Source: an uncultured Actinomycetota bacterium (GTDB taxonomy: Bacteria > Actinomycetota > Actinomycetes > Actinomycetales > Microbacteriaceae). From it: DNA of 64,000 bases. The notes under the pieces are model-generated. The model was not told the origin of the DNA. It searched no databases and saw only the letters and a program-made list of their open reading frames with translations. Positions 15,572 to 33,418 of this stretch are shown piece after piece. Where the stretch lies: the NCBI GenBank assembly GCA_963756375.1, contig CAVWNJ010000005.1, positions 1,640,440 to 1,704,439 of the forward strand, given 5' to 3'. Positions within the stretch are counted from its first letter, which is position 1. The number at the start of each line of letters is the position of its first letter. A program made the translations under genes and the position numbers.

Positions 15572-16225
15572 TCACCGCACGGTGATGCGCCCCTGCTCCC
15601 ACAGGAGCACGGCAGACACCCTCGGGTTGGATTGTTCGTCGTCGTCGAGTCCGAGCGCCGCGAACAGGCGGCCGATCATCGTCTCGGCGGCACGCACAGT
15701 GGTGCCCCGCTGCTCCGCGACCGCTCGCGTGGATGCGCCTGCCGCGAGCATCCGCAGCACCTCGGCCTGGGCGAGCGTCACCGACCAGGTTCCGCTCGCG
15801 TCGATGGGGGCGGTGTTGACCCGTTGATGCCCGGCGATGGCCTGCCGCACGGCGTCGCCGAGTTCGTCGACCGCACGCAATTGGGACTTCACGAGGTAGA
15901 TCACCCCGGTCGGCAGCACGGCGGCGTCGTCGATCGCAAGCTCCGGCGACCGGTGCGAGGTGAGCACGACAAGACCCACCCAGGGGTAGTCGTGGCTGAT
16001 CCGCTGCAGAAGGGTCGCACCGGATCCGCCCGGTCCGAAGTTCAGGTCGGACACGATCGCGTGCGGGTCGATCTCGTCGACCAGCTGCAGCGCTGTGGTG
16101 ACGTCGGCGGCGGTCTCCACCTCGAAGCCCTGCGAACGCAGGCCGTCCCCGACGAGCGACACCGTGAAGGCGTCGTCATCGGCGACCACCACGCGCAGCG
16201 CCGTTCGATCTCCGGTCATGCTCAT
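15572..16225 (-). CDS. response regulator with C-terminal LuxR-type HTH
   Basis: 217 aa with a receiver-like N-terminus and the LuxR HTH (TLAQAEVLRMLAAGASTRAVAEQRGTTVRAAETMI). ATGA overlap with the upstream kinase. Confidence 0.75.
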   Translation of the reverse strand: MSMTGDRTALRVVVADDDAFTVSLVGDGLRSQGFEVETAADVTTALQLVDEIDPHAIVSDLNFGPGGSGATLLQRISHDYPWVGLVVLTSHRSPELAIDDAAVLPTGVIYLVKSQLRAVDELGDAVRQAIAGHQRVNTAPIDASGTWSVTLAQAEVLRMLAAGASTRAVAEQRGTTVRAAETMIGRLFAALGLDDDEQSNPRVSAVLLWEQGRITVR

Positions 16226-18501
16226 CGCGCGGCACCCTCGAGCGCTGTCGCAACCGTTCGGAGGAGATCGGTCGAGGTGAAGGGTTTGGAGAGGAATGCC
16301 CGGATGCCCGGGAACGCGTCACGCTTGGCGTTGCGACTGGTGCTGAGCCCGCTGGCCACGATGATCGGAAGGGCGGGGTGCCGTTCGGCCAGGTACGCGG
16401 CGAGTGCGGCGCCATCCATCACCGGCATCATCACGTCGGTGAAGACGAGGTCGATGGGCGCCGCATCCGATTCCACGAGCGAGATGGCCTCCTCGCCATG
16501 GCCTGCACCGAGCGTCGTGTAGCCGTGCGCCTCGAGGGACTTGCGCACCACCTGCCGGATGGCGGTCTCGTCGTCGACGACGAGGATGCGCTGGCCACGA
16601 CCGATCGGAATCGACGCGCCGTCATCGACCGGATGCTCGGCGAGCGCGCGGCCGTCGCCGGACGCCGGGAGGTGGACGAGGAATCTCGACCCATTTCCGG
16701 GCTCGCTGTAGGCCTGCAGTTGTCCGCCATGGCTCCGGATGATCCCGACCGACGTCGCGAGCCCGAGCCCGGTGCCCTCTCCCTGCGATTTGGTGGTGAA
16801 GAACGGCTCGAAGATGCGGCTCATCTCGTCTTGCGGGATTCCCACGCCGGAGTCTTCGACCTCGAGTCGGATGTAGCTGCCCGGGACCAGCTCGGCATCG
16901 ATGGGGGTATGAACCGCAGAGACCACGACATTCCTCGCCGACACGAGGAGTCGACCGCCGTCGGGCATCGCGTCGCGCGCGTTGATGACGAGGTTCATGA
17001 GCACCTGCAGGATCTGCGTCGGGTCACCCGTGATCGGCAGGAGGCGATCATCCGATTCGACCGACCAGTCGATACCGGCGGGAACGGTGGTGCGACAGAA
17101 CTCGCTGACCTCCTGCAGCACCGTGACGAGATCGATCGGCAGCCGGCGCCCCTCCATTCCGCTCGCGAAGGACAGCACCTGGCGGATCATGTCCGCCCCC
17201 CGCTTGACGCTCGCCTCCATCGTGGAGAGCAACTGCGCGCGCATGGGATCAGACTCACCGGCAGCGAGGAGCTGCACCGACATGAGCACGGGAGTGAGCA
17301 CATTGTTGAGATCGTGGGCGACGCCGCTGGCCAGGTTTCCGAGGCTCTCCATGCGCTGCGCCCGCACCTGCAGTTCGTCCCGCCGTCGCTGCTGAGTCAC
17401 ATCGGTGCTCACGGTGAGGATCTTCTCGGGTTGTCCCTCCTGGCCGCTGATGAGCGTCCAGGAGGAGTTGACGACGATTCGTCGCCCCGAGCGGTGCCTC
17501 TGCTCGAGGTCACCCGACCACGCGCCGATACGTCGCACCGTCTCGATGGCGTCGGCGAGTTCGTTGGCGTCGGCGAACACGGCATCGTGAGCGGACAGCG
17601 CGATTGCTTCGTCATGGGTGTAGCCGTAGAGAGTTTCGGCCGCGGCATTCCAGAATTCGATGCTGTCGTCGAGTCTGCGCACGACGATCGCGTCTCGAGC
17701 GAGGTTCAGCAGGGCCGCCTGCGCCTCGATACGGCCAGCGCTCTCCTCGAGCGCCCGCCGCGACATCTCCTGCTCGGTGACGTTCTTGAGGTAGACGGTC
17801 AGCCCGCCCTCCGTCGGGTACGCGGTGATGTCGAGCCAGGCGTCGAGCCGCTCGATGTATTGCAGAACCTCGACGGTTTCCTGCGTCTCGACGGCGCGCC
17901 GGTATGCCGCCGCGTAGTCGGATCCGTGCGCGGTCGGCACGACGTCCCACAGCACGTTTCCGATCAGATCCAGCGCCGAGAGGTTCAGGATGCTCTCCGC
18001 GCCGGGATTCATGTAGGTGATGATCCAGTCGGCATCGAACATCAGGACGCCATCGCTGATGCGGTTGAGCGCTTCGCCAAGGGTGCGTTCGACGGTGCCT
18101 CGCGCCTCCTCGGCGGCGAGCAGGGCACCTATGTCGAAGAATGCGCCCTGGACACCGACGATCTTGCCGGACGCATCGCGGTGGGCCTCGCCCATGGTGC
18201 GCATCCGCACGACTTCTCCGCCCGGAACCGTGAAGTCGCGACGGTGGTCGAACGGGGTGCCGTCGAATTTGCTGATCGAGTCGAGGATGGACCTCTGATC
18301 GTGTTCCGGATACCGGTCGATGGCATTCCTGCTCGACTCCTCGGCCGGATATCCGAGCATCGCGCTGAGCTCTTCGGTCCAGGTCACATGGCCGGTCGCG
18401 AGGTCGATGTACCAGCCCCCGAATCGCGCCCGCTCCCCCGCCATGCGCAGGAGTTGGTCGCGGTCACCCGGCCACGGGGTGCGCGAGGGCGCTTCGGTCA
18501 T
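16222..18501 (-). CDS. PAS-domain hybrid sensor histidine kinase / response regulator
   Basis: 759 aa with PAS repeats, HisKA (SHDLNNVLTP) and HATPase (GTGLGLA) regions, and a C-terminal receiver domain (ILVVDDE...DVMMP). Confidence 0.85.
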   Translation of the reverse strand: MTEAPSRTPWPGDRDQLLRMAGERARFGGWYIDLATGHVTWTEELSAMLGYPAEESSRNAIDRYPEHDQRSILDSISKFDGTPFDHRRDFTVPGGEVVRMRTMGEAHRDASGKIVGVQGAFFDIGALLAAEEARGTVERTLGEALNRISDGVLMFDADWIITYMNPGAESILNLSALDLIGNVLWDVVPTAHGSDYAAAYRRAVETQETVEVLQYIERLDAWLDITAYPTEGGLTVYLKNVTEQEMSRRALEESAGRIEAQAALLNLARDAIVVRRLDDSIEFWNAAAETLYGYTHDEAIALSAHDAVFADANELADAIETVRRIGAWSGDLEQRHRSGRRIVVNSSWTLISGQEGQPEKILTVSTDVTQQRRRDELQVRAQRMESLGNLASGVAHDLNNVLTPVLMSVQLLAAGESDPMRAQLLSTMEASVKRGADMIRQVLSFASGMEGRRLPIDLVTVLQEVSEFCRTTVPAGIDWSVESDDRLLPITGDPTQILQVLMNLVINARDAMPDGGRLLVSARNVVVSAVHTPIDAELVPGSYIRLEVEDSGVGIPQDEMSRIFEPFFTTKSQGEGTGLGLATSVGIIRSHGGQLQAYSEPGNGSRFLVHLPASGDGRALAEHPVDDGASIPIGRGQRILVVDDETAIRQVVRKSLEAHGYTTLGAGHGEEAISLVESDAAPIDLVFTDVMMPVMDGAALAAYLAERHPALPIIVASGLSTSRNAKRDAFPGIRAFLSKPFTSTDLLRTVATALEGAAR

Positions 18502-25499: not shown

Positions 25500-25797
25500 C
25501 TACTTGCTGGCGATGAGATCGACCATGCGGAGGTCGGGCTCTTTCGCAAGGAGTGTTGGGCCGTGCTCGGCGAGTGCGGCAGGGATCGCGCCGTTCAGGT
25601 GCGCCTGCCGGTCTTCCTCGGTCTCGAAACTGTCGAAGATGCCGAAGGTGGTCTCGCCCATGCGGAAGGCGTACCAGGTGGCCGTGCCGTGCTCTTCCTG
25701 AATGATGTCGCGGCCCGCCTGCAGAAAATCCCACAGCGCCTGCTCGCTGCCGGGGTTCGCCTCGAGTGTTGCCAGAATGCCGAATTTCAACGCCATT
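25500..25797 (-). CDS. antibiotic biosynthesis monooxygenase (ABM) domain protein
   Basis: 98 aa starting MALKFGILATLEA (ATG 25795-25797). ABM/quinol monooxygenase-like ferredoxin fold. Confidence 0.65.
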
Positions 25798-25934: not shown

Positions 25935-26522
25935 ATGCACGACCGCAGCACTTCCCCGCCCGACGTGACCGGGTGCGCTCTTCTTGTCGGAGGCCGGCCG
26001 TGCCAGACCCCGATCGACCCCGACTCGCCCATCGCTCTCTGCACGGCTCATCTCCTCACCGCTCACGACTGGATCGTGCGCGATGTGGGTGTCACCGACC
26101 TGCTCCCCTCGCCCTGCCTCGCCTGTGGTTCTCGTCTCGGCGCCCGCTATCCGTCGGGCTGGCTATGCGCGATCTGCGAGTGGCGGCAGGGCGAGGTGCC
26201 CGGTGCGGATGTCGCGCCGCCGCGCGTCGACGTGGTCTACTACCTCCGCTTCGGCGACCGCATCAAGATCGGCACCTCCGGCAACCCGCGCCAGCGGCTC
26301 GCCGGGCTCCGCTACGACGAACTGCTCGCGTTCGAGCGCGGTGACCGCGCCCGCGAGCAGCAGCGCCATGCCCAGTTCTCCCGCCATCGCCTTGCCCGCA
26401 CCGAGTGGTTCGAGTCGCACGACGCCCTCACCCGACACGTTGGCGCGCTGAGCGCCGGGGTCGACGATCCCTGGCAGCGCTACGCCCGCTGGAAGAGCGA
26501 GGCTGCTGCGCTCGGCGGGTAG
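25935..26522 (+). CDS. GIY-YIG nuclease superfamily protein of the T5orf172/MUG113 type with an N-terminal Cys-rich zinc-finger-like region
   Basis: VYYLRFGDRIKIGTSGNPRQRLAGL ... FERGDRAREQQRHAQFSRHRLARTEWFE matches the T5orf172 signature. N-terminal CxxC...CxxC...CxxC. Phage/defence-island associated family. Confidence 0.75.
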   Translation: MHDRSTSPPDVTGCALLVGGRPCQTPIDPDSPIALCTAHLLTAHDWIVRDVGVTDLLPSPCLACGSRLGARYPSGWLCAICEWRQGEVPGADVAPPRVDVVYYLRFGDRIKIGTSGNPRQRLAGLRYDELLAFERGDRAREQQRHAQFSRHRLARTEWFESHDALTRHVGALSAGVDDPWQRYARWKSEAAALGG

Positions 26523-26738
26523 CGGCGCAACGCATCATCCGAAAGGCGCAAAGTCGCCGTCCCGAGGCATGATCCGCTCGCACTCCCCGACCCCGCTCGT
26601 GCCGTCGAGCATCCGCGAGGTGCATCCCACAGCGCCGAGGGTTGCGCCGGGCGGAGGAAGAACCGCCTATGGCCGCGCTCATAACGTTCTGGCGCGGGAC
26701 CAAGAGGAGCCGCAAAAACCGAGCGACAGGAGCTGGTC

Positions 26739-26936
26739 ATGGGCTGGATCAAATGGGCGAAGAAGATCTACGAACTCGTCAAGTACATCGGGAGCCGGGT
26801 AGGCACGTGGGGCGCAACCAAGGTCAAGAAGATGACCGCGTGGGTGTGGGCCAATAAGGGCACCATCTACACGTGGCTCGAGCGTGGTTCGACCATCGCC
26901 TGGATCGCCGGCGAGATCTACCGCCGCGTTTCCTAG
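26739..26936 (+). CDS. leaderless class IId bacteriocin of the lacticin Q / aureocin A53 family (65 aa, Trp/Lys-rich)
   Basis: MTAWVWANKGTIYTWLERGSTIAWIAGEI aligns with lacticin Q AVQWAWANKGKILDWLNAGQAIDWVVSKL and aureocin A53 SAAWKYKGKVLEWLNVGPTLEWVWQKL. No leader or double-Gly site. RBS aggag 8 nt upstream. Local GC about 57% against about 70% for the genome. Confidence 0.7.
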   Translation: MGWIKWAKKIYELVKYIGSRVGTWGATKVKKMTAWVWANKGTIYTWLERGSTIAWIAGEIYRRVS

Positions 26937-26941
26937 CGCGT

Positions 26942-26981
26942 GATTCGGTGCGGTCGGGCGTGCGTTCGACCGCACCGAATC
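26942..26981 (+). terminator. 15-bp perfect stem hairpin (gattcggtgcggtcg ... cgaccgcaccgaatc) immediately after the bacteriocin gene; likely partial terminator or attenuator before the PH-domain genes
   Basis: Seen directly in the sequence. A structural gene followed by a leaky terminator and then immunity genes is the classic bacteriocin arrangement. Confidence 0.5.
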
Positions 26982-27068
26982 AGCCTTGAGACGGTAGAGC
27001 GACGAGAGAGGAGCACGGATGATGGTAGCCATGACGATTGACGCGCCGGCAGACCCGCGGGCCGCGAG

Positions 27069-27563
27069 GTGGAGCGACCCCCGCACGTTCTCGGTCGTGG
27101 CACCCACGGCCTGGCGCCCGCCGCCCTGAAATACGAGAACATCAGGACGCTGATCCTCGCCGCCATCCTCACGCCGCTCGCTGTGGCCGCCTGTTTTCAG
27201 ATCCCCTCCCCGGGCTGGCGCATCGCGGCCTTCGTCGCCCTGGGTGTCCTCACCTTGGCGACGTTCGCGATCGACATACCGTTCGTCAACCGCTGGGAGT
27301 TTCAGAACACCACCTACACCGTCACCCGCGACACGGTCTTCATCCGTCGCGGTCTTCTCCTTCGCCGAACGACGACGATCTCCACCGCTCAGATACTCAA
27401 TGTCGAGATCGCACAGGGCCCACTCCTCCGTGCATTCGGTCTGGTGAAGGTGAAGTTCGCCTGCATCGCAGACGTCGAAAGCCTTACCGGGCTCACCCCG
27501 GAGGCGGCAGAGACGATACGCGACACCGTTCTCGATTCCCAAGGCGGAGTCGCAGATGACTGA
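27069..27563 (+). CDS. YdbS-like bacterial PH-domain (bPH_2) membrane protein
   Basis: 164 aa with two N-terminal TM helices followed by a PH-like domain. ATGA overlap with the downstream YdbT-like gene, mirroring the B. subtilis ydbS-ydbT pair. GTG start, uncertain. Confidence 0.65.
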   Translation: MERPPHVLGRGTHGLAPAALKYENIRTLILAAILTPLAVAACFQIPSPGWRIAAFVALGVLTLATFAIDIPFVNRWEFQNTTYTVTRDTVFIRRGLLLRRTTTISTAQILNVEIAQGPLLRAFGLVKVKFACIADVESLTGLTPEAAETIRDTVLDSQGGVADD

Positions 27564-29214
27564 TCTTCTCGAGGCCGCGCCAGCAGCTGCGAATCGCAGA
27601 CTCCCCAAGGCCTACCTTGGAGCGTCGTACCTCGCACACGGTGTGGCTACGCTCGGGTCCCTTGCCGGGGCCCTCGTCTTCCTCGCCAATCCCGACATCT
27701 GGCCGGGGAGATTGGCGGTCGCCGTCTTCGCGGCCTTCTTCCTGCTTCGCGTCATCGATCCGCTCTACGAGTGGGCGACGACCCGGATGACCATCACGAC
27801 CCATGACTTCCGGGTCACGTCGGGCCTGCTGCACAGGCGCACACGCAGCATCAGGTGGAGCGCTGTGCACTCCATTGAAACGACCGCACCGTGGGCGTAT
27901 CGGCTGTTCGGGTTGGTTCGAGTCCGTATCGCCCAGGGCGGGGACGGCTCAACCCAGGTGACGCTCGCTGGAATAACGACGCAATTCCGCGACGAGATCC
28001 TGGCACACTCGCCCGTACCGGACTCCGGCTCGCAGGACGAAGCATCCGGCTCGCAGTCCCGGGAGGCGGAGTCCCCCTCCGGCCGCCGGGAGATCGACGC
28101 GTCCCCCGATCCACGTGGTGAGCTCGTCTATCGCGCGTCAGTCGGTGACCTCGTGGTGGCGAGCATCCTATTCGGCCGGTTCGCGGTGGTGGCGATAGCG
28201 ATCGCCTTCGCGCTGTTCGAGCAACTCGATAATTTCGGCCTTCTCGGCATCCTCGATGCGCTCAACGGAGTGGGCGTGGCCGGACTCTCCACGATCGTGG
28301 CGATCGCCATCGTTGGCCTGGGAGTCGCCGCTAGCGTGGTTCGGTTCAGCCGACTGCAGGTACGCATTACCGGGCTTGGTGGCATCGCGGTCTCCTATGG
28401 CCTTATCGAGACCAATGACCGCGTCATCGACAGCGCCGGCGTCACGGGGGTCGTGCTCCAGCGCAACGCGCTGGAGATGATTCTCGGACGGGTTCGACTC
28501 GGGTTGCTCACCACCGACACCAGCCAGCAGTTCGGATCGAACCTTCTGCTCCCGTCACTGCCGCGCAACACGGTCAAGACAATCCTGGACGCCGGATTCA
28601 GAGATCGCGTGCCGGCTGAGACCCTCGCCTCACGACGAGGTCATCCCGTGCGGTCGATCATTGCCTTCTCCGCGGTCACCTCTGTTGCGGCCGGTGCCGG
28701 CTGGTGGATGCACGGGCTCGGCATGCCGCTCGGACTTGCAGCGGTCGGGGCCCTTGCTCTGTGGGCCATCATCGCCACGTCTGCCCGCCCGTTTGTCACC
28801 ACACTCCGCTACGACGTAGACGCGCAGCATGTGGCGCTTCGCACGAGCTTCATCAAGGAGCGCGACGTTTACCTCGACTCCCTTTCAATTCATCTCGTCA
28901 CGAGCACCGCTGTGCGAAACCGCTCGCGCTTTGCCACCGTGCACTACTACGCAGGCGAACCACACCAGCGGGGGTCGGTGTGGTTCTCCGAGGCGAACCT
29001 CGACGCGCTCCAGGCGCAGCTCGGCGAGCGAGACCGGCGAGCAGCCACCCTCCGGTCCTCTCGCGACGCGGCGCGACAGCGACGTCTGAGCGCCGACTCC
29101 CTAGGAGACGTCGACGACGCCAGCTTTGGCGGCTCGCACGAGAACCTGCACGCGGTCCCTGACGTTCCACTTCGTCATGATCCGCCGCAGGTGCGACTTG
29201 ACCGTCGCCTCTGA
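27556..29214 (+). CDS. YdbT-like membrane protein with three bacterial PH (bPH_2) repeats
   Basis: 552 aa with alternating TM hairpins and three PH-like repeats (e.g. RMTITTHDFRVTSGLLHRRTRSIRWSAVHSIE). Architecture matches YdbT. Confidence 0.75.
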   Translation: MTDLLEAAPAAANRRLPKAYLGASYLAHGVATLGSLAGALVFLANPDIWPGRLAVAVFAAFFLLRVIDPLYEWATTRMTITTHDFRVTSGLLHRRTRSIRWSAVHSIETTAPWAYRLFGLVRVRIAQGGDGSTQVTLAGITTQFRDEILAHSPVPDSGSQDEASGSQSREAESPSGRREIDASPDPRGELVYRASVGDLVVASILFGRFAVVAIAIAFALFEQLDNFGLLGILDALNGVGVAGLSTIVAIAIVGLGVAASVVRFSRLQVRITGLGGIAVSYGLIETNDRVIDSAGVTGVVLQRNALEMILGRVRLGLLTTDTSQQFGSNLLLPSLPRNTVKTILDAGFRDRVPAETLASRRGHPVRSIIAFSAVTSVAAGAGWWMHGLGMPLGLAAVGALALWAIIATSARPFVTTLRYDVDAQHVALRTSFIKERDVYLDSLSIHLVTSTAVRNRSRFATVHYYAGEPHQRGSVWFSEANLDALQAQLGERDRRAATLRSSRDAARQRRLSADSLGDVDDASFGGSHENLHAVPDVPLRHDPPQVRLDRRL

Positions 29215-29763
29215 CAGAAAGAGTTCTTCGGCGATCTCGGCGTTGGACATCCCACGGGCGAGCAATTCCACGACGTTGCTCTCGCGCGGGGATATCTGCT
29301 CCGACTCCTGAAGCGGAACAGAGGCGGGTGCAGGGGCGTGCGAGGCGACCGAGCGCACGAGTTCGCGAGCGATCCCGGGCGAGAGCACGTACCCGCCTTC
29401 GTGCACGCTTCTGATGGCCGCAACGATCTGTTCCGGCTCGGTGTCCTTCACGAGGAAACCGACCGCGCCCGCCCTCAGCGCGGCGATCACTGATTCATCG
29501 GAGCCGAACGTCGTGACGGCGATGACCCGGATGCCCGGCGAACGCTCTGCGAGCTGACCGATCGCGGTGATCCCGTCGCCGCCGGGCATGCGGATGTCCA
29601 TGAGCACGACATCCGGCTCGATGGCACGGCAGAGGCTGATGGCGGTCGGGCCATCCGGAGCCTCGCCGACGACGGTCATATCGCGAGCGGACTCGACGAA
29701 GATGGCGAGGGCGCGCCTGACGAGAGCCTCATCGTCAACGATGACCACTCTTACGTCGGACAT
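29101..29763 (-). CDS. NarL/FixJ-family response regulator with LuxR HTH
   Basis: 220 aa with receiver motifs ([17 protein letters not shown], KD) and a C-terminal LuxR HTH ([35 protein letters not shown]). Confidence 0.85.
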   Translation of the reverse strand: [220 protein letters not shown]

Positions 29764-29873
29764 GTCGAAAGTCTAAGTGAGCGGTTGCCGTCTCCCGGCG
29801 GACCCCGCTACGTCTCAAGGACGTATCGATCGGTAAATGGACCTGTCAGGATCTGTCTGGACATCACCACCGC

Positions 29874-31148
29874 ATGAGAACGAATCACCGAGGAGCCAGC
29901 CGTGTTCACCTTCCTGCCATACGCCAACGATTCCAAGTCGATCTGGGGCGTTTTCTGCCAGTGGCTCAAAATCTGCCGTCCCTGACCCTTCGGCGCCCGC
30001 CGTCCGGATGGCGCGGACTCGATGGGTTCTGGCAGTTCGTTCCGCTGGCACGGCTGCTGAGGATCACGCTGTTGATCGTCGTGCCCCTCGGGGTGGTCGT
30101 CGATGGAGCACTGCGCCTCGCCGGCGAGCCTGCGGGCGGCTTCATCGAATTCGCCTTCTCGACAGCGACCAGCGGATGTCTGCTCCTGATGCTCTGGCGG
30201 CCGCCGGTTGCTGCGGTCTTTCTGGCGTCAGCCGGGTTCGTCGCGGTCGCCATCAACGAGGGGGGCGGCTATCTCACCGCCGTGACCGCGAGCGTTGGCC
30301 TGGTCGTGTACTGCTGTGCCAGGTCGTTCGCCGTGGCGTACGGTTCGATCGTCGTCGGCTGGATAGTGGTCTTCGTCGCCATCCCTCCCGGTCTCCCCCG
30401 AGGCGGTGTCGTCACGCTCTTCGTGATCGGACTCATGTCTGCGGCGGTGGGGTTCTCGCTACAGGCGATGGTCCGCCGCAATGGGGCATTGCGTGAGGCC
30501 CTGGATCTTCATGACGAGCGGCTCGACGATGAGCTTAGAGCGGAGCGCAGTCGTATAGCCGATGAGTTGCACGACATCATCGCCCACGACATCACGATCG
30601 TCGCGATGCACGCGCGCGTGCTCCAGCACACGAGTGATCCCGAAGTGCGATCCGTCTCGCAACAGGCGATCAGCAGAGCGGCCGGTCAGGCCCTGGCCGA
30701 TACCCGGCGAGTTCTCAACCTCATCCACGGGCAACAGAGCGACCCGACTCCTGCCGTGACCGGCGCACCGGGCATCCGTTCCGTCCTCCCCCAGCTTGGC
30801 GATCAGCTTCGCGCCCTCGGTGACACCGTCACGGTCTCAATGGCAAATGGTCCGGAACTCGCGAAGAGCATCGATGCGACACTCGTTCGGATGGCGCGGG
30901 AGTCGGTGACCAACATCGTGAAGCATGGGGCCACACTGCGAACGGTGCACTTCGCGTTGGAGTTCTCCCGTGACTCCGTGGACCTCCGCATCGAGAACGT
31001 GCCCTATCGAGCCGATTCCGCCACGCACGGGCAGCCGGGCTATGGGCTTGCTCGCCTTCACGAGCGCGCCGATCTTCTCGGCGGATCGTTTGCGGCGGGG
31101 CAGGACGGCGAATCGTGGATTGCGCGGATGACCCTCCCGCAAAGGTGA
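29874..31148 (+). CDS. sensor histidine kinase (HisKA_3 / NarX-type, multi-TM N-terminus)
   Basis: H-box ERSRIADELHDIIAHDITIVAMHA and a C-terminal HATPase region. Divergent from its response regulator. N-terminal start uncertain. Confidence 0.8.
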   Translation: MRTNHRGASRVHLPAIRQRFQVDLGRFLPVAQNLPSLTLRRPPSGWRGLDGFWQFVPLARLLRITLLIVVPLGVVVDGALRLAGEPAGGFIEFAFSTATSGCLLLMLWRPPVAAVFLASAGFVAVAINEGGGYLTAVTASVGLVVYCCARSFAVAYGSIVVGWIVVFVAIPPGLPRGGVVTLFVIGLMSAAVGFSLQAMVRRNGALREALDLHDERLDDELRAERSRIADELHDIIAHDITIVAMHARVLQHTSDPEVRSVSQQAISRAAGQALADTRRVLNLIHGQQSDPTPAVTGAPGIRSVLPQLGDQLRALGDTVTVSMANGPELAKSIDATLVRMARESVTNIVKHGATLRTVHFALEFSRDSVDLRIENVPYRADSATHGQPGYGLARLHERADLLGGSFAAGQDGESWIARMTLPQR

Positions 31149-31277
31149 GCATGGACCGGGCTGTTCTACGCCCGCTCCCCGAACGACTCGCCAAACGCGA
31201 GCAGGACTTACCTGTTGCGCTCCGCCTAGGTTTGTAACACGGCGTGCACGCGGCAGGCCCAGCTAGGAGACGCCCCC

Positions 31278-32723
31278 ATGGACTTGTTCGGACTCGTCGG
31301 CATTGCCGTGGCTGCCGGCGCGGTATTCGTCGTCGCGATCATCAGCTTTCTTCTCTTCCGCGCCTGGTACCAGGTACCCAAAGCCGATGAGGCCATCGTG
31401 ATCGTGGGAAAGAGGGCCAGGGACAGCACCGAGGGCGAAGCGAACAAGATGACCGTGATCAGCGGTCGAGGCGCCTTCGTGAACAAGTTGACGCAGCGAT
31501 CCGACAGGGTCTCGCTGCGCTCGCGCCAGATCAAGTTCGAACCAACGGCGCAGACCAACAACGGTGTGACCATCGACCTCACCGGAGTCGCACTCGTGAA
31601 GATCGGCTCGACACCCGACCAGGTGCGACGCGCGGCCGAGCGCTTCGCCTCGCAGGATGACGCCATCGTCGTGTTCACCACGGAGCAGCTCGAGGGCGCT
31701 CTTCGCGGCGTCGTGGCGAAGCTCACGGTGGAACAGGTCATGCAGGACAGGCAGAAGCTCAGCGACGAGATCGCAGAGGGCATCTCCGGCGACCTGCTCG
31801 CGCAGGGCCTGGTGCTCGACTCTTTCGCCATCCAGGGCATCACCGACAAGAACAACTACATTTCGGCGCTCGGGGCGAAGGAAGTCCAGCGCGTGAAGCG
31901 GGAAGCGGATGTGGCGGAGATCGACGCCACTCGCGAGGTGAAGAAGCGCCAGCTGGCGGCGGATGAGGCGAACCTCATCGAACAGACCGCGCTCGACAAG
32001 AACAGCGCGGCGGCCAAATCCGAGGTCGGCCGCGCGAACGCCCAGGCCGAACAGGCGGAGAACCTCGCCCGCGCCGAAGCCGAGCAGGGCGTGCTGCTTC
32101 AGGAGGCGAACAACACCCAGGCCCGACTCGACTCCGAGGTGAAGAAGGTCGCAGACGCCGACAAATACCGGCAGCAGTCCGCCGCCGACGCGGAGGCGTA
32201 CACGCGGCAGAAGAACGCCGAGGCCGAGCGCCGGGTTGCTCAGGAGCGCTCCGATGCCGAGGCGTATGCGGTGAAGACGCAGGCCGAGGCGCGCGAGGCG
32301 TCGGCGTCGGCCGAGGCGGCCGCGGTGCGGGTGCAGGCCGAAGCGGAGGCCGAGGCGATTCGACTCCGCGGTGTCGCCACCGCCGAGGCGATCGCAGCGG
32401 AGGCGGCCGCGCTGAGCGAGAACCGGGACGCGATTCTGGCGAAGGAGATCATCGGACAGCTGCCGCAGCTGATGGCCGCATTCGCCAAGGGCTACGAGCG
32501 CGTCGGGGCCATTACCCTCATCGGCGGCGACAGTGCCGCAACTCACCTTGCCCGCGAGCAGTCCGCGAGCCTCAGTGCGACGTTCGAGAGCGTGAAGGCT
32601 GCAACCGGGCTCGACCTCGGCGCCATCATCCAGGGCCAGGCACTCGGCCGAGGGATCGCCGAGGGTTCACAGACGCCCACGACCGCAGGCAGTGGCGCGA
32701 GCTTCGACGAGACGATCGCGTAA
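31278..32723 (+). CDS. flotillin-like SPFH/band 7 protein (FloT/YuaG-like)
   Basis: 481 aa with an N-terminal TM, an SPFH domain and a long Ala/Glu-rich coiled coil (AEAEAEA repeats). RBS aggaga upstream. Confidence 0.85.
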   Translation: MDLFGLVGIAVAAGAVFVVAIISFLLFRAWYQVPKADEAIVIVGKRARDSTEGEANKMTVISGRGAFVNKLTQRSDRVSLRSRQIKFEPTAQTNNGVTIDLTGVALVKIGSTPDQVRRAAERFASQDDAIVVFTTEQLEGALRGVVAKLTVEQVMQDRQKLSDEIAEGISGDLLAQGLVLDSFAIQGITDKNNYISALGAKEVQRVKREADVAEIDATREVKKRQLAADEANLIEQTALDKNSAAAKSEVGRANAQAEQAENLARAEAEQGVLLQEANNTQARLDSEVKKVADADKYRQQSAADAEAYTRQKNAEAERRVAQERSDAEAYAVKTQAEAREASASAEAAAVRVQAEAEAEAIRLRGVATAEAIAAEAAALSENRDAILAKEIIGQLPQLMAAFAKGYERVGAITLIGGDSAATHLAREQSASLSATFESVKAATGLDLGAIIQGQALGRGIAEGSQTPTTAGSGASFDETIA

Positions 32724-32768
32724 GGCCGCGCTCATGGAACCGCTGGCGACAGCCCTTACGCTCACGGG

Positions 32769-33200
32769 GTGAGTCCCTCCCGCTCGATCGCCCGCTGGCT
32801 GCTCGGCCTCGCCCTGCTGTTTGCCGGAATCAGCCACCTCACGTTCGCCCGAGACGCATTCGTGGCTCAGGTGCCGTCGTGGTTGCCCCTGCCCGCAGAC
32901 TTCGTGGTCGTGGCATCCGGCGTCGTCGAGATCGGACTCGGGCTCGGCTTGATCCTGTTGGCGCGGCACCGCGTCGTCGTCGGATGGCTCACCGCCGCGT
33001 TCTTCGTCGCCATCTTCCCGGGCAACATCGAGCAATTCGTCAGCGGAACCGCCTCCCTAGGTCTCGACAGCGACCTGGCCAGGGGCATCCGGCTGCTCTT
33101 TCAGCCGCTGCTCGTGGTGTGGGCGCTCTGGTCGACCGGGGCATGGAAGGCGTGGCGCGATCATCGCAGGGATCGGGCCGGCAAAACTTCCCACCAGTAG
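32769..33200 (+). CDS. DoxX family membrane protein
   Basis: 143 aa with 4 TM. DoxX-like composition. GTG start. Confidence 0.65.
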   Translation: MSPSRSIARWLLGLALLFAGISHLTFARDAFVAQVPSWLPLPADFVVVASGVVEIGLGLGLILLARHRVVVGWLTAAFFVAIFPGNIEQFVSGTASLGLDSDLARGIRLLFQPLLVVWALWSTGAWKAWRDHRRDRAGKTSHQ

Positions 33201-33285
33201 CTCGGACTCGCTCCGGTGAGCTGCCGGCATGGCAGCACAAGCAAAAAGTCCGGCACCCGTGGCGAGACGGGAGACCGGACTTTTC

Positions 33286-33358
33286 GTGACCCCAACGGGA
33301 TTCGAACCCGTGTTACCGCCGTGAGAGGGCAGCGTACTAGGCCGCTATACGATGGGGC
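33286..33358 (-). tRNA. tRNA-Glu (anticodon CTC)
   Basis: Minus-strand sequence GGCCCCATCGTATAGCGGCCTAGTACGCTGCCCTCTCACGGCGGTAACACGGGTTCGAATCCCGTTGGGGTCA folds as a cloverleaf with anticodon loop CT-CTC-AC. The GGTTCGAATCC T-loop is present. CCA is not encoded. Confidence 0.85.
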
Positions 33359-33418
33359 CGTAAGCAACCTGACGAGTATGCCACACCAAGTACGTCGCCC
33401 GCCAATCGAGCGAAACGG

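What the first reader, a model, noticed from the sequence alone, without database searches (positions are those of the whole stretch)
25935..33358. Bacteriocin island: toxin gene followed by YdbS/YdbT-like PH-domain proteins, a two-component system, flotillin and DoxX, bounded by a phage-type GIY-YIG gene and tRNA-Glu
Immediately downstream of the bacteriocin, after a leaky-terminator-like hairpin, lie a ydbS-like and a ydbT-like gene (bacterial PH-domain membrane proteins, translationally coupled). In B. subtilis the ydbST pair belongs to the sigma-W antimicrobial-resistance regulon, as does the flotillin gene floT. These proteins are therefore good candidates for immunity or self-protection. 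The module also has its own NarL-type response regulator and histidine kinase. No dedicated ABC exporter is present, so export is unexplained. The module ends at the 3' side of tRNA-Glu and begins next to a T5orf172 GIY-YIG gene, a hallmark of mobile and defence islands. Taken together this resembles an uncharacterised self-contained bacteriocin production/immunity cassette in Actinobacteria.
Basis: inference. Interest (0 to 1): 0.75.

Follow-up and report, generated by a model that had tools for sequence, protein, structure and literature searches.

The report
Leaderless bacteriocin cassette in Microbacterium
This is a compact 4.6 kb gene cassette for an aureocin A53/lacticin Q-type leaderless antimicrobial peptide with its two PH-domain membrane partners and a dedicated two-component regulator; it is a real but largely already-described kind of system, and the flotillin, DoxX, GIY-YIG and tRNA genes next to it are only neighbours.

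Summary
The 65-aa peptide (26739-26936) belongs to the aureocin A53/lacticin Q class IId leaderless bacteriocin family. It scores 36.8 bits against NCBIfam NF033881 (cut-off 27), matches lacticin Q in the PDB at E 1e-5, and its predicted fold is closest to epidermicin NI01. A near-identical 66-aa peptide from Microbacterium kitamiense is already in Table S1 of Hourigan et al. 2024.

Every relative of the YdbT-like gene whose contig reaches far enough sits in the same unit: peptide, conserved hairpin, ydbS-like, ydbT-like, NarL-type regulator (reverse strand), HisKA_3 kinase. The flanking genes differ in at least five settings. The real unit is therefore about 26.53-31.15 kb, not 25.9-33.4 kb.

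Flotillin, DoxX, the GIY-YIG gene and tRNA-Glu do not travel with it. There is no integrase and no att repeat.

YdbS/YdbT-like pairs are already known partners of leaderless bacteriocins (DdE/DdF, LnqC/D, Orf7/8). In enterocin DD14 they are needed for export, not for resistance to external peptide. Export is thus the best reading.

Modestly new points: a dedicated two-component system, no ABC transporter, a conserved mini-ORF before the kinase, and a 1-nt frameshift in ydbS in this genome.

The parts
26532..26551 (+). Conserved 20-nt box GCATCATCCGAAAGGCGCAA, about 190-210 nt upstream of the peptide start. It marks the left edge of cassette conservation and is a candidate regulator-binding site (inferred).
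   Evidence: It is the first block conserved in all 7 cassette versions despite unrelated upstream genes. It occurs once in the window, but a pattern this loose is expected about once by chance. A related CGNCGAAAGG core occurs in the regulator-kinase intergenic region of some versions (weak).
26656..26738 (+). Conserved promoter-like and 5'-UTR segment. It holds an invariant GGAAG (26656-26660), a TAnnnT-type candidate -10 element TAACGT (26682-26687), and the AGGAG ribosome-binding site.
   Evidence: Invariant columns in the 7-sequence alignment. No sigma-70 consensus promoter was found by scanning. Function is inferred.
26739..26936 (+). Structural gene for a 65-aa leaderless class IId bacteriocin of the aureocin A53/lacticin Q family (7 Trp, pI 10.3).
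   Evidence: NCBIfam NF033881 36.8 bits against cut-off 27. Pfam Bacteriocin_IIi 21.1 bits, below cut-off 25. PDB sequence matches: lacticin Q E 9.8e-6, epidermicin E 4.6e-4. AlphaFold pLDDT 89.5, all-helical. Best Foldseek hits: epidermicin 6sif (TM 0.76) and aureocin A53. Orthologues are 76-87% identical in 7 other contigs.
26941..26982 (+). Conserved GC-rich hairpin with no U-tract between the peptide gene and ydbS. Probably a partial terminator or transcript-stabilising hairpin.
   Evidence: -39.8 kcal/mol, z -5.4. Present in all 7 versions; 17 pairs, 3 of them with compensatory changes; loop length varies. Also present in L074.
27019..27563 (+). ydbS-like gene: 2 transmembrane helices plus one bPH_2 domain. 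It is frameshifted in this window by a 1-nt deletion near 27058. The intact frame resumes at GTG 27069.
   Evidence: bPH_2 47 bits. Two hydrophobic helices. L003 and 6 other versions start at ATGATGG and give 177-182 aa. The indel was located by alignment.
27556..29214 (+). ydbT-like gene (552 aa): three pairs of transmembrane helices, each followed by a beta-rich module. Only the first module is recognised as bPH_2. It overlaps ydbS by 8 nt.
   Evidence: bPH_2 47 bits at residues 73-139. Hydrophobic segments at 26-71, 194-267 and 387-410. The AlphaFold model has low confidence (pLDDT 55) but shows 3 x (2 helices + strands + helix). Internal repeats were not detectable by hhalign. All 9 homologues found in 5.8 billion proteins lie in this cassette where the context is visible.
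29101..29763 (-). NarL/LuxR-type response regulator, a conserved member of the cassette. It converges on ydbT and overlaps it by 114 nt.
   Evidence: Response_reg 98 bits plus GerE 68 bits. 72-88% identical in all cassette versions, always on the opposite strand directly after ydbT.
29902..29985 (+). Conserved mini-ORF (27 aa, VFTFLPYANDSKSIWGVFCQWLKICRP) with a strong ribosome-binding site. It overlaps the start of the kinase gene. Candidate sixth gene or coupling leader; function unknown.
   Evidence: An AAGGAG site 6-7 nt before the start codon and the C-terminal motif W-x-(V/I)-(I/F)-C-x-W-(L/F)-x-I-C are shared by four distinct versions: window/L003, L067, L066 and L068/L071. L070 has only a 15-codon ORF without the motif. 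No family match. Substitution pattern is not decisive.
29961..31148 (+). HisKA_3 histidine kinase with about 5 N-terminal membrane segments and no sizeable extracellular domain (intramembrane-sensing type). Conserved member of the cassette. The start codon is uncertain (GTG 29961 or ATG 29874).
   Evidence: HisKA_3 41 bits. Weak HATPase_c hit. Hydrophobicity profile. 52-66% identical in all versions.
25935..26522 (+). Neighbour, not part of the cassette: GIY-YIG/T5orf172-like protein with Cys-rich N-terminus.
   Evidence: Borderline Pfam hits; phrog_8604 E 4e-19; no PADLOC hit. Absent upstream of the cassette in L001/L002, L066, L067 and L070. Fragmented in L064.
31278..33200 (+). Neighbours, not part of the cassette: flotillin (31278-32723) and DoxX (32769-33200).
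   Evidence: Band_7 75 bits, DoxX 29 bits. Absent downstream of the cassette in L066, L067, L068 and L070. Flotillin is 82-90% identical in 16 Microbacterium-type loci (65% in a seventeenth), none of which has any other window gene within 10 kb. GC3 is host-like, 0.85-0.86.
33286..33359 (-). Neighbour: tRNA-Glu(CTC), a core gene linked to the diacylglycerol-kinase gene. It is not a demonstrable integration site.
   Evidence: ARAGORN and Rfam hits. The same DAGK-tRNA-Glu arrangement occurs in Parafrigoribacterium soli. No direct repeat of its 3' end in 13-34.5 kb. No integrase in 13-37 kb.

Best explanation
The window, from a Microbacterium-like member of the Microbacteriaceae, carries a 4.6 kb accessory cassette (about 26.53-31.15 kb). 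Its order is: leaderless aureocin A53/lacticin Q-family bacteriocin, hairpin, ydbS-like, ydbT-like, NarL-type response regulator (reverse strand), mini-ORF, HisKA_3 kinase.

Proposed mechanism:
1. The 65-aa Trp-rich cationic peptide is made in active form with no leader (shown by homology and predicted fold; activity is inferred).
2. The conserved hairpin after its stop codon lets most transcripts end or be stabilised there. A fraction reads through into the translationally coupled ydbS-ydbT genes, giving much peptide and little membrane protein (inferred).
3. The YdbS/YdbT-like pair forms a membrane channel that exports the peptide without ATP. Export keeps the peptide from accumulating to toxic levels in the cytoplasm. 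This is inferred by analogy with DdE/DdF of enterocin DD14, and it explains why no ABC exporter is needed.
4. The intramembrane-sensing kinase and its regulator, always linked to the cassette, adjust expression in response to membrane or peptide stress (inferred).

Flotillin, DoxX, the GIY-YIG gene and tRNA-Glu are unrelated neighbours. In this genome a 1-nt deletion shifts the frame at the 5' end of ydbS, so the exporter may be made from an internal GTG or may be impaired.
For: Peptide family: NCBIfam above cut-off, PDB sequence hits, confident helical model whose best matches are epidermicin and aureocin A53, and 84% identity to a catalogued Microbacterium peptide.

Cassette unit: the five genes occur in the same order and orientation in the window/L003, L064, L065/L066 (Microbacterium sp. 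LTA6), L067, L068/L069, L070 and L071. Partial versions occur in L001, L073 and L074. The flanking genes are different: AHSA1 and TetR; DUF2071 and SBF; TetR and FAD monooxygenase.

Specificity of YdbT: only 10 proteins reached E<=1e-10 in 5.8 billion, and all lie in the cassette where the context is visible.

Hairpin: conserved, with compensatory changes. The ydbS/ydbT 8-nt overlap is confirmed.

Composition: GC3 is 0.77-0.82 for ydbS, ydbT, the regulator and the kinase, against 0.83-0.92 for the flanks including flotillin and DoxX.

Export role, from the literature: deletion of ddE or ddF abolishes export, the peptide accumulates inside the cell and kills about 90% of cells, while resistance to external peptide is unchanged. 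Orf7/8 (aureocin A53) and LnqC/D (lacticin Q) are YdbS/YdbT homologues (PMC8657885, PMC9865063). PH-domain proteins are common in Actinomycetota leaderless bacteriocin clusters (PMC11580447).
Against: - No experiment exists for this peptide or these proteins.
- The Pfam score of the peptide is below the gathering cut-off, and the peptide is 12-14 residues longer than characterised members.
- Only one of the three expected PH domains in YdbT is detected, the model has low confidence, and internal repeats are not detectable.
- In DD14 an ABC transporter still carries about 75% of the export and a separate protein (DdD) gives immunity (PMC9865063, PMC13262744). Neither has a counterpart here, so the analogy is incomplete.
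- B. subtilis YdbST protects against an external bacteriocin (PMC8144471).
- ydbS is frameshifted in this window.
Confidence: 0.7

Rival explanations
1. First reader's model. The whole 25.9-33.4 kb stretch is one self-contained production and immunity island. It was inserted at tRNA-Glu and is flanked by a phage-type GIY-YIG gene. Flotillin and DoxX contribute to self-protection.
For: The arrangement is shared by L003 (99% identical) and L064 (about 86% identical). In B. subtilis, ydbST and floT are both in the sigma-W regulon (PMC8144471). The region on the 3' side of tRNA-Glu differs between genera. The GIY-YIG protein and the small adjacent protein match phage protein families.
Against: Flotillin, DoxX and the GIY-YIG gene are absent from all five other settings of the cassette. 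Flotillin and DoxX have host-like GC3. There is no integrase, transposase or att repeat. Flotillin is a conserved genus-wide gene whose neighbours vary.
Confidence: 0.08
2. The YdbS/YdbT-like pair is mainly an immunity device against external peptide, as sigma-W-controlled YdbST protects B. subtilis from amylocyclicin. Export would then occur by another, unlinked route.
For: YdbST protects against amylocyclicin (PMC8144471, citing Butcher and Helmann 2006 and Scholz 2014). The lnqBCDEF cluster serves both production and immunity (Iwatani 2013, cited in PMC6131525). The cassette has no other candidate immunity gene apart from the mini-ORF.
Against: In the only direct genetic test in a leaderless bacteriocin cluster, ddE and ddF mutants kept wild-type resistance to external peptide but could not export it (PMC9865063). 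No alternative exporter is linked to any of the cassette versions.
Confidence: 0.2
3. The cassette in this genome is silent or decaying. The ydbS frameshift inactivates the exporter, so the peptide gene must be off or the locus is on its way to loss.
For: There is a 1-nt deletion relative to L003 and all other versions. No obvious ribosome-binding site precedes GTG 27069. ydbS and ydbT are the most diverged genes between the window and L064.
Against: Only about 16 poorly conserved N-terminal residues would be lost. Both membrane helices and the PH domain remain in one ORF. All other cassette genes are intact, and the peptide is 100% identical to that of L064. The indel could be an assembly error.
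Confidence: 0.15
4. The peptide is not an antimicrobial but a membrane-active or signalling peptide sensed by the linked kinase. The cassette would then be a signalling circuit rather than a weapon.
For: The two-component system is strictly linked. Characterised leaderless bacteriocin clusters use other types of regulator (PMC6131525).
Against: The peptide has family-level homology and the predicted fold of proven pore-forming bacteriocins. Two Actinomycetota members of the family were synthesised and found active (PMC11580447).
Confidence: 0.05

Closest known systems
Aureocin A53 / lacticin Q / epidermicin NI01 (class IId leaderless, saposin-like bacteriocins; NCBIfam NF033881, Pfam PF11758)
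   Same: No leader; Trp-rich and strongly cationic; conserved W-x-W-x-x-K-G...W-L/I...G...W core; all-helical compact predicted fold whose best PDB matches are epidermicin and aureocin A53.
   Different: 65-66 aa instead of 51-53, with two insertions in the N-terminal half and a fifth predicted helix. The Pfam score is below the cut-off. The host is an actinobacterium with about 67% GC. Activity is untested.
Microbacterium kitamiense WP_102193816.1 and other Actinomycetota aureocin A53-like peptides (Hourigan et al. 2024, J Bacteriol, PMC11580447)
   Same: Same peptide subfamily: the M. kitamiense peptide differs by one residue from that of L066 and is 84% identical to the window peptide. The paper already notes that PH-domain proteins are common in these clusters and that Actinomycetota peptides are longer.
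   Different: The paper lists this peptide only in a supplementary table. It does not describe its gene cluster, the linked two-component system, the absence of an ABC transporter, the hairpin or the mini-ORF.
Enterocin DD14 cluster ddABCDEFGHIJ (DdE/DdF PH-domain exporter). Also aureocin A53 Orf7/Orf8 and lacticin Q LnqC/LnqD.
   Same: A small YdbS-like protein (2 TM + PH) and a large YdbT-like protein (6 TM + PH domains) are encoded directly after a leaderless bacteriocin gene (PMC8657885).
   Different: The DD14, aureocin A53 and lacticin Q clusters also carry ABC transporters, and DD14 has a separate immunity protein, DdD. This cassette has none of these. Regulation here is by a NarL/HisKA_3 two-component system rather than TetR- or HTH-type regulators (PMC6131525).
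Bacillus subtilis sigma-W regulon genes ydbST and floT
   Same: A bPH_2 membrane protein pair of the same architecture. YdbST gives protection against a bacteriocin, amylocyclicin (PMC8144471).
   Different: There, the genes are stress-regulon members unlinked to any bacteriocin gene and controlled by an ECF sigma factor. Here they are linked to a peptide gene and a two-component system. The flotillin next door does not co-occur with the cassette elsewhere.

Membership tests
Aureocin A53 / lacticin Q family class IId leaderless bacteriocin | Sequence match to the curated family model above its cut-off | tested here: met
   NCBIfam NF033881 36.8 bits against cut-off 27, E 2.2e-9. The older Pfam PF11758 model gives 21.1 bits, below its cut-off of 25. 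PDB phmmer: lacticin Q E 9.8e-6.
Aureocin A53 / lacticin Q family class IId leaderless bacteriocin | No N-terminal leader or signal peptide; the family core starts at Met1 | tested here: met
   Met1-Gly-Trp aligns with Met1 of lacticin Q, aureocin A53 and epidermicin. No double-glycine or signal sequence is present. The N-terminus is invariant in 8 orthologues. Absence of processing in vivo is not testable here.
Aureocin A53 / lacticin Q family class IId leaderless bacteriocin | Compact all-helical (saposin-like) fold, Trp-rich and cationic | tested here: met
   AlphaFold pLDDT 89.5 with 5 helices. Foldseek top hits are epidermicin 6sif (target TM 0.76, prob 0.99) and aureocin A53 2n8o, though the E-values are weak for such a small protein. 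The peptide has 7 Trp and pI 10.3.
Aureocin A53 / lacticin Q family class IId leaderless bacteriocin | Length about 47-53 residues, four helices | tested here: not met
   65 aa, with two insertions relative to the three solved members and a fifth predicted helix. Hourigan 2024 lists other 64-66 aa Microbacterium members, so this is a known long subtype.
Aureocin A53 / lacticin Q family class IId leaderless bacteriocin | Antimicrobial activity of the unmodified peptide | not testable with these tools
   Needs synthesis or expression and an inhibition assay.
YdbS/YdbT-type bPH_2 membrane pair (DdE/DdF, LnqC/D, Orf7/8) | Small protein with 2 TM helices plus one bPH_2 domain | tested here: met
   bPH_2 47 bits against cut-off 22. 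Two hydrophobic helices at residues 24-74.
YdbS/YdbT-type bPH_2 membrane pair (DdE/DdF, LnqC/D, Orf7/8) | Large protein with three repeats of (2 TM + bPH_2) | tested here: inconclusive
   The first PH domain is detected (47 bits). The second and third are not detected by Pfam. Three hydrophobic regions placed as expected for TM pairs, the third resolved as one 24-residue segment. The low-confidence AlphaFold secondary structure fits the pattern. hhalign finds no internal repeat. No PDB relative by sequence.
YdbS/YdbT-type bPH_2 membrane pair (DdE/DdF, LnqC/D, Orf7/8) | Adjacent, co-oriented genes next to a leaderless bacteriocin gene | tested here: met
   8-nt overlap. The peptide gene is immediately upstream in all 9 distinct contexts that reach far enough.
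YdbS/YdbT-type bPH_2 membrane pair (DdE/DdF, LnqC/D, Orf7/8) | Required for export of the peptide | not testable with these tools
   Genetic evidence exists only for DdE/DdF (PMC8657885, PMC9865063).
tRNA-integrated genomic island | Integrase or recombinase gene next to the tRNA or at the island end | tested here: not met
   No such domain in any gene from 13 to 42 kb.
tRNA-integrated genomic island | Direct repeat of the tRNA 3' end at the distal boundary | tested here: not met
   No repeat involving 33286-33359 among direct repeats of at least 16 nt in 13-34.5 kb.
tRNA-integrated genomic island | Presence/absence polymorphism at the same site in close relatives | tested here: inconclusive
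   The only two relatives that share the flanks (L003 at 99%, L064 at about 86%) both carry the full arrangement. In another genus the DAGK-tRNA-Glu pair is followed by different genes, then by TerC. No empty site was found.
tRNA-integrated genomic island | Atypical base composition across the whole segment | tested here: not met
   Only ydbS, ydbT, the regulator and the kinase have lowered GC3 (0.77-0.82). The GIY-YIG gene, flotillin and DoxX are host-like at 0.85-0.86.
Peptide-pheromone three-component bacteriocin regulation (HPK10 kinase + LytTR regulator + inducing peptide) | LytTR-type response regulator and AgrC/PlnB-type kinase | tested here: not met
   The regulator has a GerE/LuxR output domain and the kinase has a HisKA_3 dimerisation domain. 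The best NCBIfam hits (MadR, NarL, LiaS, UhpB) are all far below their cut-offs.

The most novel reading that the evidence does not exclude
The Microbacterium cassette is a minimal leaderless bacteriocin system with no ABC transporter. The YdbS/YdbT channel alone provides both export and self-protection. Output is controlled by a dedicated intramembrane-sensing two-component system working with a conserved 23-27-aa Cys-containing mini-protein encoded just before the kinase. Such a regulatory circuit has not been described for leaderless bacteriocins.
Probability: 0.25. Interest if true: 0.55.

Novelty: new member of a known kind. Interest (0 to 1): 0.3.

Why it matters
How cells export leaderless bacteriocins and survive making them is still debated, because the peptides are active as soon as they are translated. 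Every characterised cluster mixes PH-domain proteins with ABC transporters and extra immunity genes, which makes it hard to separate their roles. This cassette carries only the peptide, the YdbS/YdbT pair and a two-component system. It recurs in that form in several genomes, at least one of them a sequenced isolate (Microbacterium sp. LTA6; M. kitamiense carries a near-identical peptide). It would therefore be a clean system for testing whether a YdbS/YdbT channel is enough for export and self-protection. The peptide is also an untested, unusually long member of a family with activity against Gram-positive pathogens. Otherwise the finding is an ordinary new instance of a published kind of gene cluster.

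Tried and rejected
1. Exhaustive HMMER search with the peptide against 1.84 billion cluster representatives. It returned only one true relative (P0001). The second hit (P0002) is a low-complexity FAWGRQGSC-repeat protein and is spurious.
2. Two scans of JGI metagenome contigs, one with the peptide alignment and one with the YdbT alignment. Both found nothing.
3. tblastn of the peptide and of YdbT against 72,556 plasmids. No match, so there is no evidence for plasmid carriage.
4. Using flotillin as a synteny anchor in 185,579 species genomes. It identified the genus but shared no neighbours with the window, so no empty site could be defined.
5. Using the diacylglycerol-kinase gene as an anchor. 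Apart from self and L064, homologues are at most 62% identical. One context (P. soli) was examined, and the source record itself could not be retrieved.
6. Search for att-type repeats, integrases, Rfam families and defence-system (PADLOC) hits. All negative.
7. A search for a shared operator between the peptide promoter region and the regulator-kinase intergenic region. Only weak, inconsistent 12-13 of 16 matches were found, so this remains a lead.
8. A test for three PH repeats in YdbT by Pfam on sub-fragments, AlphaFold, hhalign and a PDB profile search. All inconclusive.
9. A consensus promoter and terminator scan. It found no sigma-70-type promoter, and it cannot see terminators that lack a U-tract.

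Full report
**What is in the sequence**

- a GIY-YIG/T5orf172-like ORF (25935-26522)
- a 65-codon ORF with a good ribosome-binding site (26739-26936)
- a strong hairpin (26941-26982; -39.8 kcal/mol, z -5.4)
- a ydbS-like and a ydbT-like gene, each with a bPH_2 domain (47 bits each) and overlapping by 8 nt
- a NarL/GerE-type response regulator on the reverse strand (29101-29763)
- a HisKA_3 histidine kinase (to 31148)
- a flotillin, a DoxX protein and tRNA-Glu(CTC)

The organism is a Microbacterium-like member of the Microbacteriaceae. Its flotillin is 82-90% identical to those of 16 Microbacterium-type loci from other species. A 99%-identical metagenome contig (L003) and an 86%-identical one (L064) share the whole arrangement.

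**The peptide**

It passes the curated NCBIfam model for the aureocin A53 family of class IId bacteriocins (36.8 bits, cut-off 27). It falls just short of the Pfam model (21.1 bits against 25). Among solved structures it matches lacticin Q (E 9.8e-6), epidermicin NI01 (E 4.6e-4) and, weakly, aureocin A53.

A confident AlphaFold model (pLDDT 89.5) is all-helical. Its best PDB matches are epidermicin (target-normalised TM 0.76) and aureocin A53.

The peptide has 7 Trp and a pI of 10.3. Its Met1 aligns with Met1 of the leaderless bacteriocins. It carries two insertions that make it 65 aa rather than 51-53.

The subfamily is rare. There is one other 50%-identity cluster in 1.84 billion representatives, and none in JGI metagenomes or PLSDB plasmids. 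It is not new, however. Table S1 of Hourigan et al. 2024 lists a 66-aa peptide from M. kitamiense (WP_102193816.1), annotated as an aureocin A53-family bacteriocin. That peptide differs by one residue from the L066 orthologue found here.

**What the unit really is**

A search with the YdbT-like protein returned only ten proteins at E<=1e-10 in 5.8 billion. I retrieved the contig of every one that could be looked up. Each shows the same order and orientation:
- peptide (65-66 aa)
- bPH_2 protein (177-182 aa)
- bPH_2 protein (514-555 aa)
- response regulator (reverse strand)
- HisKA_3 kinase

Identity to the window proteins is 76-87% for the peptide, 60-74% for YdbS, 51-57% for YdbT, 72-88% for the regulator and 52-66% for the kinase. 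L074 begins inside the peptide gene, and L073 is cut before it.

The flanks differ:

| Locus | Upstream | Downstream |
|---|---|---|
| L066 (Microbacterium sp. LTA6) | AHSA1-type gene | TetR |
| L067 | DUF2071 | SBF transporter |
| L068 | not covered (contig starts 318 nt upstream of the peptide gene) | TetR, FAD monooxygenase |
| L070 | an unrelated 190-aa membrane protein | an unidentified gene on the opposite strand, cut by the contig end |

None has flotillin, DoxX, a GIY-YIG gene or a tRNA.

Upstream conservation starts at a 20-nt box at 26532-26551, 9 nt after the GIY-YIG stop codon. Downstream, similarity to other Microbacterium flotillin loci starts at about 31222. The cassette is therefore about 26.53-31.15 kb.

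Composition agrees. GC3 is 0.77-0.82 for ydbS, ydbT, the regulator and the kinase. It is 0.83-0.92 for the flanks, including flotillin and DoxX.

**The island claim**

The cassette is accessory and occurs at different chromosomal sites. In that limited sense the would-refute condition (conserved synteny across actinobacteria) is not met. The proposed island is not supported, for these reasons:
- No integrase or transposase lies between 13 and 42 kb.
- There is no direct repeat of the tRNA 3' end.
- tRNA-Glu is linked to the diacylglycerol-kinase and metallo-beta-lactamase-fold genes in Parafrigoribacterium soli as well. It is a core gene, and the genes on its 3' side simply differ between genera.
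- Flotillin is a well conserved genus-wide gene. In 16 Microbacterium-type loci from other species it has none of the window's genes within 10 kb.
- The GIY-YIG gene does match a phage protein family (phrog_8604, E 4e-19). But it has no defence-system match, is fragmented in L064, and is absent from the other cassette settings.

**How it most likely works**

The link between YdbS/YdbT-like proteins and leaderless bacteriocins is published. Orf7/Orf8 of aureocin A53, LnqC/LnqD of lacticin Q and DdE/DdF of enterocin DD14 are all such pairs (PMC8657885).

In DD14, deleting ddE or ddF abolishes export. The peptide accumulates in the cytoplasm and kills about 90% of cells, while resistance to external peptide is unchanged. 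A DdE/DdF channel that works without ATP has been proposed (PMC8657885, PMC9865063). Hourigan et al. note that PH-domain proteins are common in Actinomycetota clusters (PMC11580447).

The best reading is therefore that the pair exports the peptide and so prevents self-poisoning from inside.

The rival reading is immunity to external peptide. It rests on B. subtilis YdbST protecting against amylocyclicin (PMC8144471). It is not excluded, because the cassette has neither a counterpart of the DD14 immunity protein DdD (PMC13262744) nor an ABC transporter.

The hairpin is conserved in all versions. It has 17 pairs, three with compensatory changes, and a variable loop. It lacks a U-tract. It probably sets a high ratio of peptide transcript to exporter transcript (inference).

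The kinase has about five membrane segments and no sizeable external loop, like intramembrane-sensing envelope-stress kinases. Its strict linkage argues that it regulates the cassette, but no operator could be established.

**Points that go beyond the published picture**

1. A dedicated NarL/HisKA_3 two-component system is a constant member of the cassette. Characterised leaderless systems use TetR- or HTH-type regulators (PMC6131525).
2. No version has an ABC transporter.
3. A 23-27-codon ORF with a conserved AAGGAG site and a W-x-(V/I)-(I/F)-C-x-W-(L/F)-x-I-C motif precedes and overlaps the kinase start in four distinct versions: window/L003, L067, L066 and L068/L071. L070 has only a 15-codon ORF without the motif.
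4. In this window, ydbS has lost one base at about 27058 relative to L003 and all other versions. The conserved ATGATGG start is therefore out of frame, and the gene can only be read from GTG 27069. This may be a real lesion or an assembly error.

**Verdict**

The finding is real and correctly spotted. It is a new member of a known kind, with over-extended boundaries and an immunity interpretation that the literature makes less likely than export. Interest is modest. The main value is as a minimal system without an ABC transporter for testing the YdbS/YdbT export model.

Noticed in passing
window 27019-27129 (indel at about 27058): ydbS has a 1-nt deletion (CCCGC-GGGCC against CCCGCAGGGCC) relative to the 99%-identical contig L003. 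All other cassette versions keep the ATGATGG start in frame and give 177-182 aa. In the window the first 13 codons run into a 36-codon dead-end ORF, and the gene resumes at GTG 27069.
   Followed up: partly
window 29902-29985 (+): A conserved mini-ORF (27 aa, two Cys, hydrophobic) with a strong AAGGAG site lies between the regulator and kinase genes and overlaps the predicted kinase start. The motif-bearing form (23-27 aa) is present in L003, L067, L066, L068 and L071; L070 has only a 15-codon ORF without the motif. No family match.
   Followed up: partly
window 17.4-36.7 kb against L064: Nucleotide identity to the related contig L064 is mosaic. It is 91-98% across 20.7-25.8 kb (luciferase-like monooxygenase, FMN reductase, MetNIQ, small ABM-like gene), about 80-86% in the baseline, and only 72-80% across ydbS/ydbT. 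The peptide is nevertheless 100% identical at protein level. This suggests recombination between lineages and fast evolution of the PH-domain proteins. L064 has many indels, so part of the pattern may be assembly error.
   Followed up: partly
window 31222-32675; loci L004-L020: The flotillin gene is 82-90% identical at protein level in 16 Microbacterium-type loci from other species (65% in a seventeenth). None of its neighbours in the window occurs within 10 kb of it there, and the flanks of those loci show little nucleotide similarity to the one reference locus (L004) they were compared with. In contrast, the diacylglycerol kinase next to tRNA-Glu has no homologue above 62% identity apart from self and L064.
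   Followed up: partly
window 29101-29214: ydbT (552 aa) and the convergent response-regulator gene overlap by 114 nt in the window and in L003. In other versions ydbT is 514-546 aa and ends 2-10 nt before the regulator's stop codon. The window's YdbT C-terminal tail is therefore probably a read-through extension.
   Followed up: no
window 26532-26551 and 29800-29830: A 20-nt box (GCATCnnnCGRAAGRCGCAA) is conserved about 200 nt upstream of the peptide gene in all 7 versions. A loosely similar CGNCGAAAGG / ACGTC-N5-GACGT element sits in the regulator-kinase intergenic region. This is a possible shared operator, but the statistics are weak.
   Followed up: partly
window 25500-25796 (-) and 25935-26522 (+): The small ABM-like protein (98 aa) and the C-terminal half of the GIY-YIG-like protein match PHROG families of unknown function (phrog_6411 at E 1.6e-26; phrog_8604 at E 4e-19). 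No other phage genes are nearby. The GIY-YIG gene is fragmented in L064.
   Followed up: partly
window 33244-33283: A hairpin flanked by an A-run and a T-run (AAAAGTCCGG...CCGGACTTTT) lies between the DoxX stop codon and the 3' end of tRNA-Glu. It looks like a bidirectional terminator separating the two convergent transcription units.
   Followed up: no
window 15572-18501 (-): A hybrid PAS/HisKA/HATPase/receiver kinase and a stand-alone receiver protein lie next to TerC. In P. soli, TerC sits about 1.5 kb from tRNA-Glu; in the window they are about 18 kb apart. The whole 15.3-33.3 kb stretch is therefore variable between genera.
   Followed up: no
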